DNA from: Eledone cirrhosa
Taxonomy: Eukaryota
Length of the DNA: 64,000 nt
NCBI GenBank assembly: GCA_964016885.1
Contig: CAXHJY010001349.1
Coordinates: 1-64,000, forward strand
Reading direction: 5' to 3'
Shown here in pieces: positions 430 to 50,600 of this stretch (position 1 is the stretch's first letter; every line of letters starts with the position of its first letter). The notes beneath the pieces were generated by a model. That model was not told the origin of the DNA, did no database searches, and worked only from the letters and a program-made list of their open reading frames with translations. The translations under genes were made by a program, and so were the position numbers.

Positions 430-1028
430 CGTTTCTGAATTTGTTTAGCAAGATTCTTTATCTGAAATCGTGTGTCGAAACCGATATTGTTATACTTTGG
501 GAGGGTCATGTTGCCAATAAGAAACACACGCACGAGCTGCTTTCACTTCAATTTATTATAATAAATTTATAAATTTAGGAATTTATAAATTTATAAATTT
601 CTGGTTGGTTGGTTGGTTCCACAACCAGATAGTTGTTTATATATTGTCAAAGTTCTTTCGTCACACATTTGTGACCTCTTCAGTGACTTGGGATTCTTTT
701 CTTTTTTTGTGCCTCTCCTTTGTTCTCTCCTACGCCATTTTGTTTCTGTGTGTGTATTGTGTGCTCAGTGTGCGCATGCGCCACATCCGGCTGTCTGTGT
801 GTGTTTATGTTCATTTATTTATTTGTTTATTTACATGTTACTGGTTGGTTGTTTGTCCTATGTGTGTGTGTGTTTTCATTTTGTCCTCAATTGTAAGTTG
901 TGATGTTGCTGTTGCACTCATATTTTCTATTTAATTTTGGTTTTGGTTTTGGTTGTAATTCTTTTATGTTTATTGCCTTTGTGATTTGTCTAAACATTGC
1001 GTCTTTTCTGTGTGTAGATTCTATTTTT
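430..1028 (-). mobile_element. 5'-truncated Penelope-like element: GIY-YIG C-terminal tail plus 3' UTR/pLTR with HHR (same family as 20798-22290)
   Basis: Minus-strand translation [33 protein letters not shown] matches the end of ORF 21268-21846; sequence aligns with 20798-21400. Confidence 0.85.
646..687 (-). ncRNA. Minimal hammerhead ribozyme
   Basis: Minus strand: gtca-CTGAAGA-g-gtcaca(aatg)tgtgac-GAAA-gaac-TT-tgac; stems I and II pair. Confidence 0.75.
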
Positions 1029-2187
1029 ATATATATATATATATACATATATATATATATACATATATATATATACATATATATATATATATATATATAT
1101 ATATATATATATATATATATATATATATATATACATATATCTATATATATATATATATATACATATATATATATATATATATAAATATACATATATATAT
1201 ATATATACATATATATATATATATATACATATATATATATATTATATACATATATATATATACATATATATATATATGTACATATATATATATACATATA
1301 TATACAATATATATATATATATATAAATACATATTTATACATATATATATATACATATATATACATATATATATATATATACATATATATATATACATAT
1401 ATATACATATATATATATATATATACATATATATATATACATATATATATATATATATATATATATATATATATATATATACATATATATACATATATAT
1501 ATATATATATAAATACATATTTATACATATATATATATACATATATATACATATATATATATATATATACATATATATATATACATATATATACATATAT
1601 ATATATATATATACATATATATATATACATATATATATATATATATATATATATATATATATATATATACATATATATATATATATATATATATATACAT
1701 ATACATATACATATATATACATATATATACATATATATATACATATATATATATATACATATATATATATACATATATATGTATATATACATATATACAT
1801 ATATACATATATATACATATATATATATACATATATATATATATACATATATATATATATATACATATATATATATATACACATATATATATATATATAC
1901 ATATATATAGAAAAAGAGATGAAATCGAAAATGCAACTGAAGTCTTATTTTTTTTATATATATACATATATATATATATACATATATATATATACATATA
2001 TATATATATATATACATATATATATATATATATATACATATATATATATATATATACATATATATATATATATACATATATATATATATACATATATATA
2101 TATATATAGATATATATACATATATATATATAGATATATATACATATATATATATACATATATATATATATATACATATATATATAT

Positions 2188-2798
2188 ATGGTGGTGGCTG
2201 CCAACTCATTTTCGAGTACGGCCACTACTTTATATCCATGTAGGAGAACCCTACCGATGCGCCAAACAAGTGTGACTTTTTAGTCCAGCCAGCGACTTGA
2301 AAACTCTGGTACAAACACTACACCTGTGACAATTATTGACACATAGTGCTGGGCCCATGGCACCATGTGACGACAAGTGCAGAGAGATCTCCAGATATAA
2401 AGCAATGCCTGTGCCGTGAAGCTTTTATAGTGAGCAAAGGCACTGCACAAAACCAGTCCCACTCTCTTAACCAAGATGATATTTACCAAAAGAAGAACGA
2501 GTCAACATCATTGGATACCATCAGGGTTGCAGGTGTTATATCAGAGTTTTCCTTCTCCTAGAATTCTGCCTTGACAAAGGCTAACGGGTCATCTCTCCCG
2601 GTGATTTTGGATGGCCATTGACTCTTAAGAGCTCCTTTGCCGTTTGACAGGTTTTGTTTTTAGTCCTGCAGGATGTCCAAAGTCACCCTCCTCACCATGA
2701 AACCTTGGTGGGGTTGCCAGTTTAGTCGCCAACGACCCGACCATGAGACAGGTTGTACTGGGATACATGTTGCCAGTAGCACCAACTGGTGACCTGAC
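2188..2798 (-). mobile_element. RTE-derived non-autonomous retroelement (~605 bp)
   Basis: Near-identical to copies at 60856-63920; 3' part encodes a C2H2 finger remnant followed by a stem-loop and a microsatellite tail. Confidence 0.8.
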
Positions 2799-2827
2799 AT
2801 ATATATATATATATAGGAACAAGTAAG

Positions 2828-2921
2828 ACCCCGACGGCTGAGCTCAAACCGTTTCGACGGCTAATTCTGTACTGAATGAAAATTTATTCAGGTATTTAAA
2901 TAGCCGAACTTATCAAGGGGT
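2828..2921 (-). ncRNA. Hammerhead ribozyme, U3:A8 core variant (mirror of 4305-4398)
   Basis: Reverse-complement copy of the 4305-4398 motif with a few substitutions in stem III. Confidence 0.75.
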
Positions 2922-48081: not shown

Positions 48082-49818
48082 TTACTCTTTTACTCTTTTA
48101 CCTGTTTCAGCCATCCGGCTGAGGCCATGCTGGTGCACCGCCCTTGTTGCTACACATTTTATCTCCAGCCTGTATAGGTTGGCCACTGGTGTCGGAGGGA
48201 GTTTGTTGCTGCTGCCCTTAGGTTTCCCTCGTCTCGTGTCTTGCTGTGGGCTCATCCGGGATCCTGGATAACAAGGTGTCGAGATGTTTCTTAAAGACAT
48301 CCACCTCCACGTCATGCAAGTCTCGCAGATGCCTCGGCAGCCTGTTGAAGAGTTGAGGGCCCTTGAATCCCAGGCTATTGCAATACCTGCTCCTTATTCT
48401 AGATGTGGAAGACGGGACCTTTGGCACCACACAGTGACGTCCTGTTCGACGGTGGTCCAGCTCCCAATGCCAAAGTTTGGTGCTAGTCCCTCCAGGATTT
48501 TCCACATGTAGATCACTGCGTATCTCTCCCGTCTTCGCTCCAAGGAGTAGAGGTTCAGTTCCTTCTGCCTCTCCCATTAGCTTGTCTCCCTCATCTTGGC
48601 AATCCTCCTGGTGTAGCTTCGCTGGAGTGCCTCAAGCTCCGTGGTTAGTTTGACACTATGGGGTGACCACAGCTGGGAGCAGTAGTCCAGGCGGCTTAGG
48701 ACAAAAGTCCTCCACAGTGTCAACATGGTGTCTCGATCTCTTGTAAGGAAAGTCCTCAAGATCCAGCCAGCGAATCGTCTACATGCTGTCGCCACCTTCA
48801 TGATGTGTGAAGAAAAAGATGCATCATCGCTCATGTCTATGCCCAGGTCTCGTATCGATTTTGACACGGAGATATCGGTCCCTCCTGGTCCTGTGTAGCT
48901 GTGTTCTGCTATATTTGTGTTTGTGTTTGCAGGTTTGTATTGTAGGGCTTGGAATTTTCCCGCATTAAACTGCATGTTGTTTTCTTCCGCCCATCTGTAT
49001 ATGGCATCCAGATCCTGCTGTAAGAGGGCAGCGTCAGCCGGGTTTTTGATTGCCTGTGCTACCTTAGTGTCATCAGCATAGCTAGTGAGGGATGTTGTTG
49101 CACAGAAGGCATGTCCGAGAGAGCCACCAAAAACAGTAGTGGTCCCAGGACTGTCCCCTGGGGGACCCCACTTGTTATCGGTGTTTCCCTCGAGAGGGCC
49201 CCATTTGCTGCGACTGCCTGGCTTCTGTCCCTTAGGAAGCCATGCAGCCACTCACCTATTTTTCCAGTTATGCAGCGTCCGTGTAGTTTGTGACATATCA
49301 TTCCGTGGTCGACCTTGTCAAAGGCCTTCGCAAAGTCAAGATATATCACGTCCACATGTGAGCTGTCTAGTAGTTGTCTCAGTACCCAGTCGTAGTGATG
49401 TAGCAGCTGTGTAAGGCAGCTCCTTTCTGGGCGGAAGCCATGTTGCGTGCTAGTCAGGCGGTCATTTTCTTCGAGGAAAGTGATTAGTTTCTTTCTGACG
49501 ACTCGCTCCATGACCTTACTGATATGCGACGTCAAGGAGACTGGCCTATAGTTCTTGGCCTCCGCTCTACTACCTCCTTTATGGATAGGGCATATTGTGC
49601 CTTCTTTCAGCTCCCTGGGTAGTACACCGCTAGCCAAGAAGCTTCTGAAGAGCATCTTCAGTGGAGTTGCTAAGGCCCGCTTACATATTTTTAAGAGAAC
49701 TGCTGGGAATCCATCAAGTCCAGCAACCGAGTCTGTTCTAATTTCATTAATGGCGTACACCACATCCTCCTCCGTTATGTCTATGTGGTTGATGGTTGCC
49801 ATTTCTTGATGTAGTGTT
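48082..49818 (-). mobile_element. 5'-truncated, frameshifted APE-type LINE (RT region); distinct relative of the 27556-32249 LINE
   Basis: NYRPVSLTSH, QHGFR, YLDFAKAFD, GVPQGTVLGP, YADD, LDYCSQLWSP, IPDEP; 3' tail (aaaagagt)2 then (TA)n. Confidence 0.93.
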
Positions 49819-50009
49819 ATATACATATATATATATATATATATATATATATATATATATATATATAACAATTAAGATAAAACGAAACGAAATTTAATTT
49901 CGTTTCGTTATTTGTTTTTATATATATATATATATACATATATATATATACATATATATATATATATACATATATATATATATATATATATATATATATA
50001 TACATATAT

Positions 50010-50250
50010 ATTTTTATTTTTATCCTGTAACCTTTATATGTAAATTGCCATGCTATATCATTTGATGAATGTCACCCCACTGTTGATCAATATGCGCATA
50101 TGTTTTATATGTCTCTTGGGTTGAAAAGGAGGTCAAGTATGTTATAGATCAGTAAATAGTTGCTCCGAAGAATCCAAACCTCGGTTTGGAGGAAACAATT
50201 GTAAGCAAATAAATGACTTAAACTGAACTTTGATTATTGTAATCTCTATA
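50010..50250 (+). mobile_element. PLE 3' end fragment with HHR (50160-50208; U4C core)
   Basis: ttgct-CCGAAGA-a-tccaaacc(tc)ggtttgga-g-GAAA-caattg-TA-agcaa-ataaa. Confidence 0.78.
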
Positions 50251-50453
50251 CATATATATATACATATATATATATACATATATATATATATATATATATA
50301 TATATACATATATATATATATACATATATATATATACATATATATATATACACATATATATATACATATATATATATACATATATATATATACATATATA
50401 TATATACATATATATATATACATATATATATATATACATGTATATATATATAT

Positions 50454-50600
50454 ATTGTTATATTTGGGGAGGGTCATATTTGCGTAATATTGCCAGAATT
50501 AATAACAGAACACACTCACTGTTTGGTTGGTTTTCGCTTCTCGCTGTCTTTTATATCTGCGATCTAACTTACTCGGTCCTCAATGTTGCCATTTTCTGTT
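50454..50600 (-). mobile_element. Extreme 3' terminus of the 44856-46940 PLE family
   Basis: Nearly identical to 44856-45004. Confidence 0.9.

What the first reader, a model, noticed from the sequence alone, without database searches (positions are those of the whole stretch)
430..50600. A (TA)n microsatellite field colonised by a community of hammerhead-ribozyme retroelements
Seen: about 20 HHR motifs from roughly 12-14 sequence-unrelated families in 50 kb, every carrier with both ends in (TA)n. Most carriers (2815, 16398, 24478, 33341, 40416, 42420) encode no protein; a few are RT/GIY-YIG PLEs. Established: PLEs carry minimal HHRs in their pLTRs, and retrozymes are non-coding HHR elements mobilised in trans. 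Inference: a TA-microsatellite-targeting system of autonomous PLEs plus many parasitic self-cleaving RNAs that use TA tracts as a safe harbour.
Basis: partly seen in the sequence, partly recalled or inferred. Interest (0 to 1): 0.85.

Follow-up and report, generated by a model that had tools for sequence, protein, structure and literature searches.

The report
TA-targeting Penelope elements and retrozyme passengers
This TA-repeat field is packed with pieces of TA-inserting Penelope-like jumping genes, mostly of the known Hydra group, plus three protein-free repeats that carry predicted hammerhead ribozymes, end in TA at fixed points in the same way and so likely borrow those genes' enzymes; the stretch is typical of this genome rather than a special site.

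Summary
The interval has 15 complete type I hammerhead motifs plus about nine degenerate or half motifs (chance under 1). Genome-wide, 269 of 294 copies of 11 families end in (TA)n, against 6–7% background.

Three of the six 'non-coding' carriers (2815, 24478, 33341) are 5'-truncated long 3' UTRs of coding Hydra-clade Penelope-like elements (PLEs), a clade already published as hammerhead-bearing and TA-inserting, also in Octopus. Eight of the 11 families tested are coding PLEs. Only 16398, 40416 and 42420 are closed, ORF-free 528–660 bp units (non-LTR retrozymes). A hammerhead-less LINE also inserts in TA. Random chromosomal regions hold 46 motifs in 380 kb (about 3.6×10^5 per genome), so the window is only about 2.5-fold denser.

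Not found in my literature searches: the retrozymes carry the PLE insertion signature (fixed 3' ends 121–378 nt past the cleavage site, variable 5' ends, inversions, partial tandems). Also, 14 of 16 fixed ends sit on a ≥3-nt TA run in the template (4 expected), suggesting microhomology priming. No RNA or enzyme test was possible. The scan noted a similar TA-inserted tandem in another genome.

The parts
1..51723 (.). Degenerate (TA)n field, split into tracts by nested insertions
   Evidence: (18,915 bp in 36 merged tracts over the whole window)
423..1027 (-). 3' end of a C-terminal-EN PLE ('PLE423', Neptune/Nematis-type CX4CxxC linker); HHR 683->650
   Evidence: (ORF in L401, L402)
2813..4497 (+). 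5'-truncated 3' UTR of Hydra family 2, with an inverted pLTR copy at 2813-3075; U3:A8 HHRs 4310-4393 (+) and 2916->2833 (-); tail 4413-4497
   Evidence: (731-aa frame in L283)
5552..5827 (-). 3' fragment of the HHR-less TA-inserting LINE
   Evidence: 97% identical to 31978-32247
6824..7033 (-). Fold-back fragment of another HHR family (3' half-motif); coding status unresolved
   Evidence: (full motif in L158)
7292..11479 (+). Neptune-like PLE, ORF in pieces (7669-8703, 8610-9104, 9277-10935); minimal HHR 11329-11357
   Evidence: (RVT_1 and GIY-YIG, both just below the Pfam cut-off)
11733..14977 (+). Full-length Hydra family 1 PLE: inverted tail 11733-11882, ORF 11967-14324 (785 aa stop-free; RWK, DKT, CxCx5C, YIG, CxxC, CxH), HHR 14820-14923
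16396..17128 (+). Retrozyme R16398: about 1.2 copies of a closed 630-bp ORF-free unit; HHR 16809-16869; fixed 3' end 259 nt past the cleavage site
17379..17592 (-). Solo tail/3'-end fragment of Hydra family 1
20792..22289 (-). Second PLE423 fragment with a GIY-YIG remnant (21268-21927); HHR 21058->21024 (AAAA in place of GAAA)
24477..26438 (-). 5'-truncated and 5'-inverted 3' UTR of Hydra family 3 (period 5,345 bp; 2.5 kb from stop to cleavage site); U3:A8 HHR 24566->24528
   Evidence: (L271)
27894..32247 (+). HHR-less APE-RT LINE (ORF1 27982-29154, ORF2 29025-32162) that also inserts in TA; used as the control
32262..32652 (.). Fold-back fragment with two 3' half HHR motifs; coding status unresolved
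33343..36030 (.). Inverted pair of 3' UTR pieces of Hydra family 4; HHR 33455->33406 (-) and a degenerate copy at 35833 (+); tail 35942-36030
   Evidence: (738-aa ORF in L275, L276, L281)
37668..37981 (.). Fold-back tail + half HHR of a relative of Hydra family 6 (78% identical)
38613..38953 (+). 3' end of Hydra family 5 (period 3,326 bp); U3:A8 HHR whose stem I 5' strand is lost at the fold-back junction
   Evidence: (L394)
40416..41424 (-). Retrozyme R40416: about 1.5 copies of a closed 660-bp ORF-free unit; HHR 40764->40687; two fixed 3' ends (273 and 378 nt past the cleavage site)
42419..44174 (+). Retrozyme R42420: 3.3 tandem copies of a closed 528-bp ORF-free unit; HHRs 42928-42997, 43456-43525, 43984-44053; fixed 3' end 121 nt past the cleavage site
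44859..46939 (-). 5'-truncated PLE related to PLE423 (68% aa identity); ORF remnant 45387-46475; weak HHR 45112->45079; 3'-end fragment repeated at 50456-50599
50012..50251 (+). 3' end of Hydra family 6 (period 4,697 bp; 829-aa frame in L388); U4C HHR 50165-50203

Best explanation
The interval is a (TA)n field filled with 3' pieces of at least nine coding Penelope-like retrotransposon families (six of the Hydra clade) and three ORF-free tandem units with predicted hammerhead ribozymes, whose copies end in TA genome-wide and which likely use the Penelope-like reverse transcriptase and endonuclease in trans. Mechanism: the GIY-YIG endonuclease would nick (TA)n (inferred; TA preference is published for Hydra). 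The free 3' end would anneal to a 2-7-nt UA run in the RNA, 17-378 nt downstream of the hammerhead cleavage site (the run is shown in the sequence; annealing is inferred). Reverse transcription would start there, at one of one or two fixed sites (fixed ends shown; internal initiation at two sites was shown in vitro for Poseidon, PMC11167929). It would then read across the cleavage/ligation point of a circular or tandem RNA and give variably 5'-truncated, often 5'-inverted partial tandems (products shown; RNA form not shown). Hydra elements here have 0.3-2.5 kb between stop codon and ribozyme, so truncated copies look non-coding. Each insertion splits a TA tract and leaves TA on both sides for the next one, so dense nested fields build up at many places in the genome (inferred). 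A hammerhead-less LINE uses the same target.
For: Hydra diagnostics as published in the ORFs of the six families, complete in families 1, 4 and 6. 2815, 24478, 33341, 38613 and 50012 run into those ORFs in other copies. 3' junctions in TA, 269 of 294 de-duplicated loci: Hydra1 24/24, Hydra2 25/29, Hydra3 21/24, Hydra4 22/24, Hydra5 24/24, Hydra6 18/23, Neptune-like 23/24, PLE423 22/24, R16398 23/25, R42420 42/46, R40416 25/27; background 5.8-7.3%. Retrozyme units close on themselves in arrays of up to about 8 copies, with a longest Met-ORF of 26-43 aa. None of 27 + 20 + 20 copies chosen by their 3' end ran directly into a PLE ORF; the R16398 copies among them were all shorter than one unit, so closure rests. 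R40416 shows inverted segments in 13 of 20 loci and a second fixed end. TA runs at the ends: 14 of 16 are >=3 nt against 4.06 expected, and 0 of 300,000 draws reach that. The run and the 3' end persist in R40416 subfamilies only 63-86% identical. R42420 stem II varies by a T-A/G-C swap. Circular monomers fold better than shuffles for R42420 (z -6.6) and R16398 (z -4.9).
Against: No autonomous partner was found for any retrozyme: their units matched none of the PLE copies held, only other retrozyme copies and a 57-nt R42420/R40416 match. R40416 does not fold better than shuffles (z -1.6). Most isolated HHRs do not take the three-way fold at minimum free energy; only 3 of 9 had z below -2, and one of those folded into a different hairpin. 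25 of 294 loci lacked TA at the anchors (some are read-through tandems or interrupted copies). 5' junctions are less often TA: Hydra1 6/12, R16398 12/20, R40416 14/18. In vitro, Poseidon initiates at RNA sites not homologous to the cut DNA, and its HHR is not needed for insertion (PMC11167929). The UA run could be an inherited scar of an old insertion rather than a primer site. In one search the null used the read-through copy with the shortest other runs, which lowers it somewhat; a first version with a null contaminated by flanking TA gave p=0.21 on the sum. Loci are the best-scoring, i.e. youngest, matches, not a random draw.
Confidence: 0.78

Rival explanations
1. One reading: the field is mainly a community of many non-coding self-cleaving parasites served by a few PLEs, in a hammerhead-specific niche.
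For: Three real non-coding families, each with over 1,400 first-look candidates. Further unresolved fragments (6593, 6824, 32262) could add more; 6593 matches a 525-bp tandem in L396.
Against: 8 of 11 tested families are coding; 3 of the 6 named non-coding carriers are Hydra 3' UTRs; the HHR-less LINE shares the target.
Confidence: 0.07
2. The three ORF-free units are satellite-like pLTR remnants, amplified and dispersed at DNA level (unequal exchange or repair between TA tracts) without RNA or a PLE enzyme.
For: Tandem arrays exist (up to about 8 units). Li et al. 2026 discuss local amplification of solo pLTRs. No RNA evidence was obtained here.
Against: Copies share one or two fixed 3' ends with variable 5' ends and 5' inversions, a polarity that DNA exchange does not predict. 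They are dispersed over many chromosomes, and the HHR and 3' end are kept across 63-86% identical subfamilies.
Confidence: 0.05
3. The retrozymes are mobilised by a TA-inserting LINE (such as 27894-32247), as SINEs are, not by PLEs.
For: The LINE is young (96-100% identical copies) and TA-flanked.
Against: No shared 3' end with the LINE among the BLAST hits. Retrozyme ends are internal to the unit, with a second 'tail' end in R40416 and frequent inverted copies, as for PLEs (PMC8557442 section 6; PMC11167929). The LINE had 20 first-look candidates against 1,400-3,200 for the retrozymes (not copy numbers).
Confidence: 0.05
4. The TA is made by the insertion (template slippage on the UA run adds TA), not targeted.
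For: 3' junctions are TA more often than 5' junctions, and the template has a UA run at the start site.
Against: 5' junctions are TA in 12 of 20, 14 of 18 and 6 of 12 loci, far above the 4% background, which needs TA present beforehand. Slippage may still lengthen the tracts.
Confidence: 0.03
5. The window is a chimeric assembly joined through TA tracts.
For: It is the start of an unplaced 89,858-bp contig and begins inside TA. No long reads were laid across it.
Against: The same junctions recur at hundreds of chromosomal loci, and chromosomal regions are as dense in motifs. A mis-join would not alter the family-level results.
Confidence: 0.02

Closest known systems
Hydra clade of Penelope-like elements (Craig et al. 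2021, PMC8557442; supplement lists Hydra-1_Obim from Octopus bimaculoides, 2,507 bp, (TA)n)
   Same: Single ORF with RT and C-terminal GIY-YIG; RWK/RWR, DKT, CxCx5C linker, CxxC and CxH around E and N; 3' type I HHR; (TA)n insertion.
   Different: Six divergent families side by side. Units are 3.2-5.3 kb rather than generally under 3 kb, owing to 0.3-2.5 kb between stop codon and HHR. U3:A8 and U4C cores and long stem II inserts occur. Tails are 80-170 nt rather than 30-40 nt.
Non-LTR retrozymes of animals (Cervera & de la Pena 2020, PMC7229834; Li, Clavereau & Pollet 2026, 10.64898/2026.07.22.740005)
   Same: ORF-free head-to-tail units with one type I HHR each, GC 32-35%, monomers to multimers, co-occurring with PLEs.
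   Different: 528-660 bp (above Cervera's 150-450, within Li's 51-972). HHRs are atypical rather than canonical. Strict TA targeting and fixed internal 3' ends were not described in the passages read. No pLTR donor was found here, and circular RNA was not tested.
Poseidon from Anolis carolinensis, in vitro mechanism (Frangieh et al. 2024, PMC11167929)
   Same: Internal initiation at two fixed sites downstream of the HHR, which explains the optional tail; AT-rich targets.
   Different: There the initiation site is not homologous to the cut DNA; here 14 of 16 ends lie on a >=3-nt TA run matching the target.
Neptune and Nematis PLEs
   Same: CX2-5CxxC linker ahead of GIY-YIG, HHR near the 3' end, microsatellite bias hypothesised (PMC8557442).
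   Different: The clade was not resolved for 7292-11479, PLE423 or 44859-46939: no reference sequences were in the tree.
Minimal PLE hammerheads (Cervera & de la Pena 2014, PMC4209133)
   Same: Palindromic short helix III (dimer type), extra base between positions 9 and 10.1, U3:A8 covariant core, single motifs from truncated PLEs, inverted pairs.
   Different: Far higher estimated load: about 3.6x10^5 motifs against 4,000 (coelacanth), 9,000 (Xenopus) and up to 120,000 (axolotl, PMC7229834 section heading); the descriptors differ.

Membership tests
Hydra-clade PLE (families 1-6) | RWK motif in place of GxKF/Y | tested here: met
   RVRWK/RIRWR/RVRWR in families 1, 4, 5, 6; not found in the 731-aa frame of family 2; region missing from the family 3 piece
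Hydra-clade PLE (families 1-6) | DKG changed to DKT | tested here: met
   families 1, 2, 4, 5, 6; region absent from the family 3 piece
Hydra-clade PLE (families 1-6) | CxCX5C linker, C-terminal GIY-YIG, CxxC and CxH flanking E and N | tested here: met
   families 1, 2, 4, 6 by pattern; families 3 and 5 by eye in the downstream frames
Hydra-clade PLE (families 1-6) | CCHH motif absent | tested here: inconclusive
   by eye only: no cysteine pair inside the YIG core of ORF 11967-14324; not aligned to references
Hydra-clade PLE (families 1-6) | HHR near the 3' end | tested here: met
Hydra-clade PLE (families 1-6) | (TA)n insertion | tested here: met
   134 of 148 loci over the six families
Hydra-clade PLE (families 1-6) | Generally short (<3 kb); descriptive, not strict | tested here: not met
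   units of 3,179, 3,326, 4,697 and 5,345 bp
Hydra-clade PLE (families 1-6) | RT groups with published Hydra sequences | not tested
   no published Hydra protein in the tree; the quick tree only separates the six families and 15 database homologues from the Neptune/Nematis-like rows
Non-LTR retrozyme (R16398, R40416, R42420) | Head-to-tail repeats, each with a type I HHR | tested here: met
Non-LTR retrozyme (R16398, R40416, R42420) | No protein coding, low GC | tested here: met
   longest Met-ORF 26-43 aa, GC 32-35%
Non-LTR retrozyme (R16398, R40416, R42420) | Canonical HHR with loop1-loop2 tertiary contacts (Cervera 2020 wording; Li 2026 also accepts minimal motifs) | tested here: inconclusive
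   core and three stems present, stem II long and irregular; tertiary contacts not assessed
Non-LTR retrozyme (R16398, R40416, R42420) | Self-cleavage and circular RNA in vivo | not testable with these tools
   no RNA holder listed; only contigs could be laid
Non-LTR retrozyme (R16398, R40416, R42420) | Homology to a PLE pLTR (found for 24 of 57 Xenopus families) | tested here: inconclusive
   no match to the PLE copies among 432 loci held; the genome has more PLE families than were sampled
Neptune/Nematis PLE (7292-11479, PLE423, 44859-46939) | CX2-5CxxC linker before GIY-YIG | tested here: met
   CNDNRCGTC and CIDKKCITC patterns
Neptune/Nematis PLE (7292-11479, PLE423, 44859-46939) | RT clade assignment | not tested
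   no references; long branches flagged; the labels are recalled

The most novel reading that the evidence does not exclude
TA-inserting PLEs prime reverse transcription by annealing the nicked (TA)n end to a short UA 'landing run' inside their RNA, telomerase-style and unlike the non-homologous start shown for Poseidon. Ancient ORF-free ribozyme circles with no sequence kinship to any current PLE hijack this machinery by offering only a hammerhead and such a run. This has helped load an octopod-type genome with about 350,000 hammerhead motifs, more than any count in the papers read.
Probability: 0.35. Interest if true: 0.7.

Novelty: new member of a known kind. Interest (0 to 1): 0.42.

Why it matters
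Both components are known: TA-inserting, hammerhead-bearing Hydra PLEs (already listed for Octopus) and non-LTR retrozymes as presumed PLE passengers. This genome adds direct genomic signatures for two open questions. First, what moves animal retrozymes: three families show the PLE insertion signature copy by copy. Second, how PLEs reach microsatellites: a TA run at 14 of 16 fixed reverse-transcription starts points to microhomology priming, which the existing in vitro PLE assay can test. A young, intact Hydra ORF with many 100%-identical 3' ends is a ready reagent for the first biochemistry of this clade and for a (TA)n-directed integrase. The estimated hammerhead load, about one motif per 8 kb, also matters for annotating such genomes, where truncated long 3' UTRs are easily mistaken for non-coding families.

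Tried and rejected
Rfam scan: the 150 listed rows were all TA-driven miRNA matches; uninformative. Pfam found no family in the Hydra ORF, as expected from its divergence; the clade call rests on motifs. The first junction count undercounted because tails and 5' extensions were not modelled; one search replaced it (crashed part-way). One search dropped 30 loci: 29 duplicates (inverted pairs, tandem members, segmental copies, loci fetched twice) and L003; other window copies were left out by range. 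The first microhomology null included flanking TA tracts, gave p=0.21 on the sum and was redone. PLE423 was left out of that test because only one putative read-through was seen. Seven AT-rich satellite hits in L175 and one overlapping core in L158 were removed from the 54 background hits (46 kept). A search for a PLE donor of the retrozymes found none. Expression: no RNA holder listed. Laying contigs of four runs of unrecorded kind on the R42420 monomer showed loose TA ends at the same fixed 3' position and an end-to-start joint. Contigs cannot tell a circle from a genomic tandem and the runs may be the assembly's own sample, so this is not used as evidence. The careful tree did not finish; only the quick tree was seen. 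Rejected: 2815, 24478, 33341, 38613 and 50012 as non-autonomous families; the window as an exceptional hotspot; TA targeting as hammerhead-specific. Literature searches listed no paper on cephalopod retrozymes or on microhomology priming of PLEs at TA. The library lacks most subscription papers and Repbase reports, and the bioRxiv supplements of Li 2026 were not seen, so this may be in print elsewhere.

Full report
Setting. The window is bases 1-64,000 of an unplaced 89,858-bp contig of a 3.0-Gb assembly. An octopod-type host is my inference from recalled repeat content and a weak Argonauta homologue; it was not established. TA-rich 30-mers cover 33% of 1-52,000 against 4.2% in 38 evenly spaced 10-kb chromosomal regions, one of which reaches 34%. 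Cutting out the TA tracts leaves 34 inserts, many with inverted or partial-tandem structure.

Hammerheads. A strict type I descriptor gave 11 hits against 0.07 in shuffles; a relaxed one gave 17 at score >=25 against 0.27. Fifteen complete motifs lie in 430-50600. They show palindromic short helix III, a base between positions 9 and 10.1, and U3:A8 cores, all described for PLE ribozymes (PMC4209133, parts 1-2 of 4 read). Self-cleavage was not tested, and most isolated motifs do not take the active fold at minimum energy, as expected for dimer-type motifs. The window is not exceptional: the same scan found 54 hits in 380 kb of background (46 after removing a satellite and an overlap; 1-2 in shuffles). 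That is one per 8 kb against one per 3.3 kb here, or about 3.6x10^5 per genome (bootstrap 2.0-5.4x10^5).

What the carriers are. ORF 11967-14324 has RVRWK, DKT, a CxCx5C linker, YIG, CxxC and CxH. These are the published diagnostics of the Hydra clade, whose families carry hammerheads and almost all insert in (TA)n (PMC8557442: abstract, passages, sections 6, 11 and 12). Its supplement lists Hydra-1_Obim from Octopus bimaculoides with (TA)n preference. Copies elsewhere in the genome showed that five apparently non-coding carriers are 3' ends of other Hydra families. For 2815, 28 of 29 copies continue upstream at the window's break and longer ones carry an RT/GIY-YIG frame. 24478 belongs to a 5,345-bp unit, 33341 to a 738-aa ORF, 38613 to a 3,326-bp unit and 50012 to a 4,697-bp unit with an 829-aa frame. 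Their stop-to-ribozyme distances are 330-2,530 nt, which is why truncated copies look non-coding. The six families are 38-68% identical in protein. 7292-11479, 423/20792 and 44859 are further coding PLEs with a CX2-5CxxC linker; Neptune versus Nematis was not resolved. Three carriers are truly ORF-free closed units: R42420 (528 bp), R16398 (630 bp) and R40416 (660 bp). They have Met-ORFs of at most 43 aa, head-to-tail arrays of up to about 8 units, and no direct run into a PLE ORF among 67 loci chosen by their 3' ends. These fit non-LTR retrozymes (PMC7229834, passages only; bioRxiv 10.64898/2026.07.22.740005, parts 1-3 of 5, which proposes they are non-autonomous PLE derivatives). No PLE donor was found among 432 loci.

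Targeting. After dropping 30 loci (29 duplicates and one window copy), 269 of 294 loci of 11 families have (TA)n at a fixed 3' end, against 5.8-7.3% of background positions under the same rule. The retrozymes alone score 90 of 98 and the Hydra families 134 of 148. These are the best-scoring copies, not a random draw. 5' junctions are TA less often (6/12, 12/20, 14/18) but far above background, so TA precedes insertion. The control cuts against specificity: the hammerhead-less LINE ends in TA in 11 of 19 (strict) or 15 of 19 (30-nt rule) copies.

Mechanism. Every family tested has one or two fixed 3' ends, 17-378 nt downstream of the cleavage site, with variable 5' ends. Two ends 80-170 nt apart occur in Hydra 1, 2, 3, 4 and 6 and in R40416. 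This matches internal initiation at two sites, shown in vitro for Poseidon (PMC11167929, parts 1-2 of 4). The retrozymes sharing this signature, with inverted segments in 13 of 20 R40416 loci, is the main evidence that PLE machinery moves them (inference). In read-through copies each end coincides with an alternating A/T run in the template, of 6,3,3,3,4,3,2,3,5,6,2,5,5,4,7,5 nt. Fourteen of 16 are >=3 nt against 4.06 expected, and no draw of 300,000 reached that. The null was drawn from the read-through copy with the shortest other runs, and a first, TA-contaminated null gave p=0.21 on the sum. Even at a 50% chance per site, 14 of 16 would have p near 0.002 (my arithmetic). The run and the end persist in subfamilies 63-86% identical. 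I read this as annealing of the nicked TA end to the RNA. The rival is an inherited scar, and the Poseidon work found no homology at its start sites. Circular monomers fold better than shuffles for two of three units (z -6.6, -4.9, -1.6). Shown: motifs, ORFs, closed units, fixed ends, TA junctions, UA runs. Inferred: nicking, annealing, circular RNA, trans mobilisation, and build-up of fields by repeated insertion.

Novelty. Both parts are members of known kinds, and the TA-targeting system itself is published, including for an octopus. Eight literature searches listed nothing on cephalopod retrozymes, their TA targeting or microhomology priming; Repbase and subscription papers were not searchable. 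Verdict: observation largely real, interpretation partly right, new members of known kinds, interest 0.42. The boldest reading not excluded (microhomology-primed TA targeting exploited by donor-less ribozyme circles) has probability 0.35 and interest 0.7.

Noticed in passing
38 evenly spaced chromosomal regions L151-L188: 46 HHR motifs in 380 kb after removing 8 doubtful hits (1-2 in shuffles), i.e. about 3.6x10^5 per genome (bootstrap 2.0-5.4x10^5). The count tracks TA content (Spearman 0.60), and 35 of the 54 raw hits have TA within 400 nt downstream against 22% of random positions.
   Followed up: partly
window 27894-32247: Young HHR-less APE-RT LINE with both ends in TA at most loci. ORF1 has a Q-rich stretch and two CCCH-like motifs; it looks CR1-like from recall, not tested.
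   Followed up: partly
window 17642-19935: Element between TA tracts whose minus strand ends in a GC hairpin and CTAG: a Helitron-like 3' end (label recalled).
   Followed up: no
window 48083-49824 and 38253-38285, 39376-39408: Fragment of a second LINE family, and two 33-nt pieces of that family embedded in TA.
   Followed up: no
window 6593-6666; L396:4053-9500: 3' fragment of another tandem family (period about 525 bp) that ends in TA on an ATATA run: probably a fourth retrozyme.
   Followed up: partly
window 52952-53033 and 53113-53214: Two more complete HHR motifs outside the TA field and outside the finding, with no TA within 5 kb downstream; old copies of other families.
   Followed up: partly
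L165:8749-9682: 311-bp tandem with a minimal HHR in each unit, in a background region: another retrozyme array.
   Followed up: no
window 2190-2798 and 60809-64000: About 610-bp non-coding repeat flanked by (ATGT)n or TA, five or more copies in the window and 37 hits in 31 loci; SINE-like, no HHR hit.
   Followed up: no
R42420 unit 213-263 vs R40416 (window 40928-40984): 57-nt, 79% match between two otherwise unrelated retrozyme units; weak (E about 1e-3).
   Followed up: no
P0053: A Hydra-type PLE protein deposited under a Gammaproteobacteria MAG name is almost identical in the tree to sea-anemone proteins P0093/P0098: likely host contamination in that record.
   Followed up: no
P0014: The nearest named homologue of ORF 11967-14324 is from Argonauta hians (35% identity) and groups with the window's Hydra families in the quick tree; weak support for an octopod host.
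   Followed up: partly
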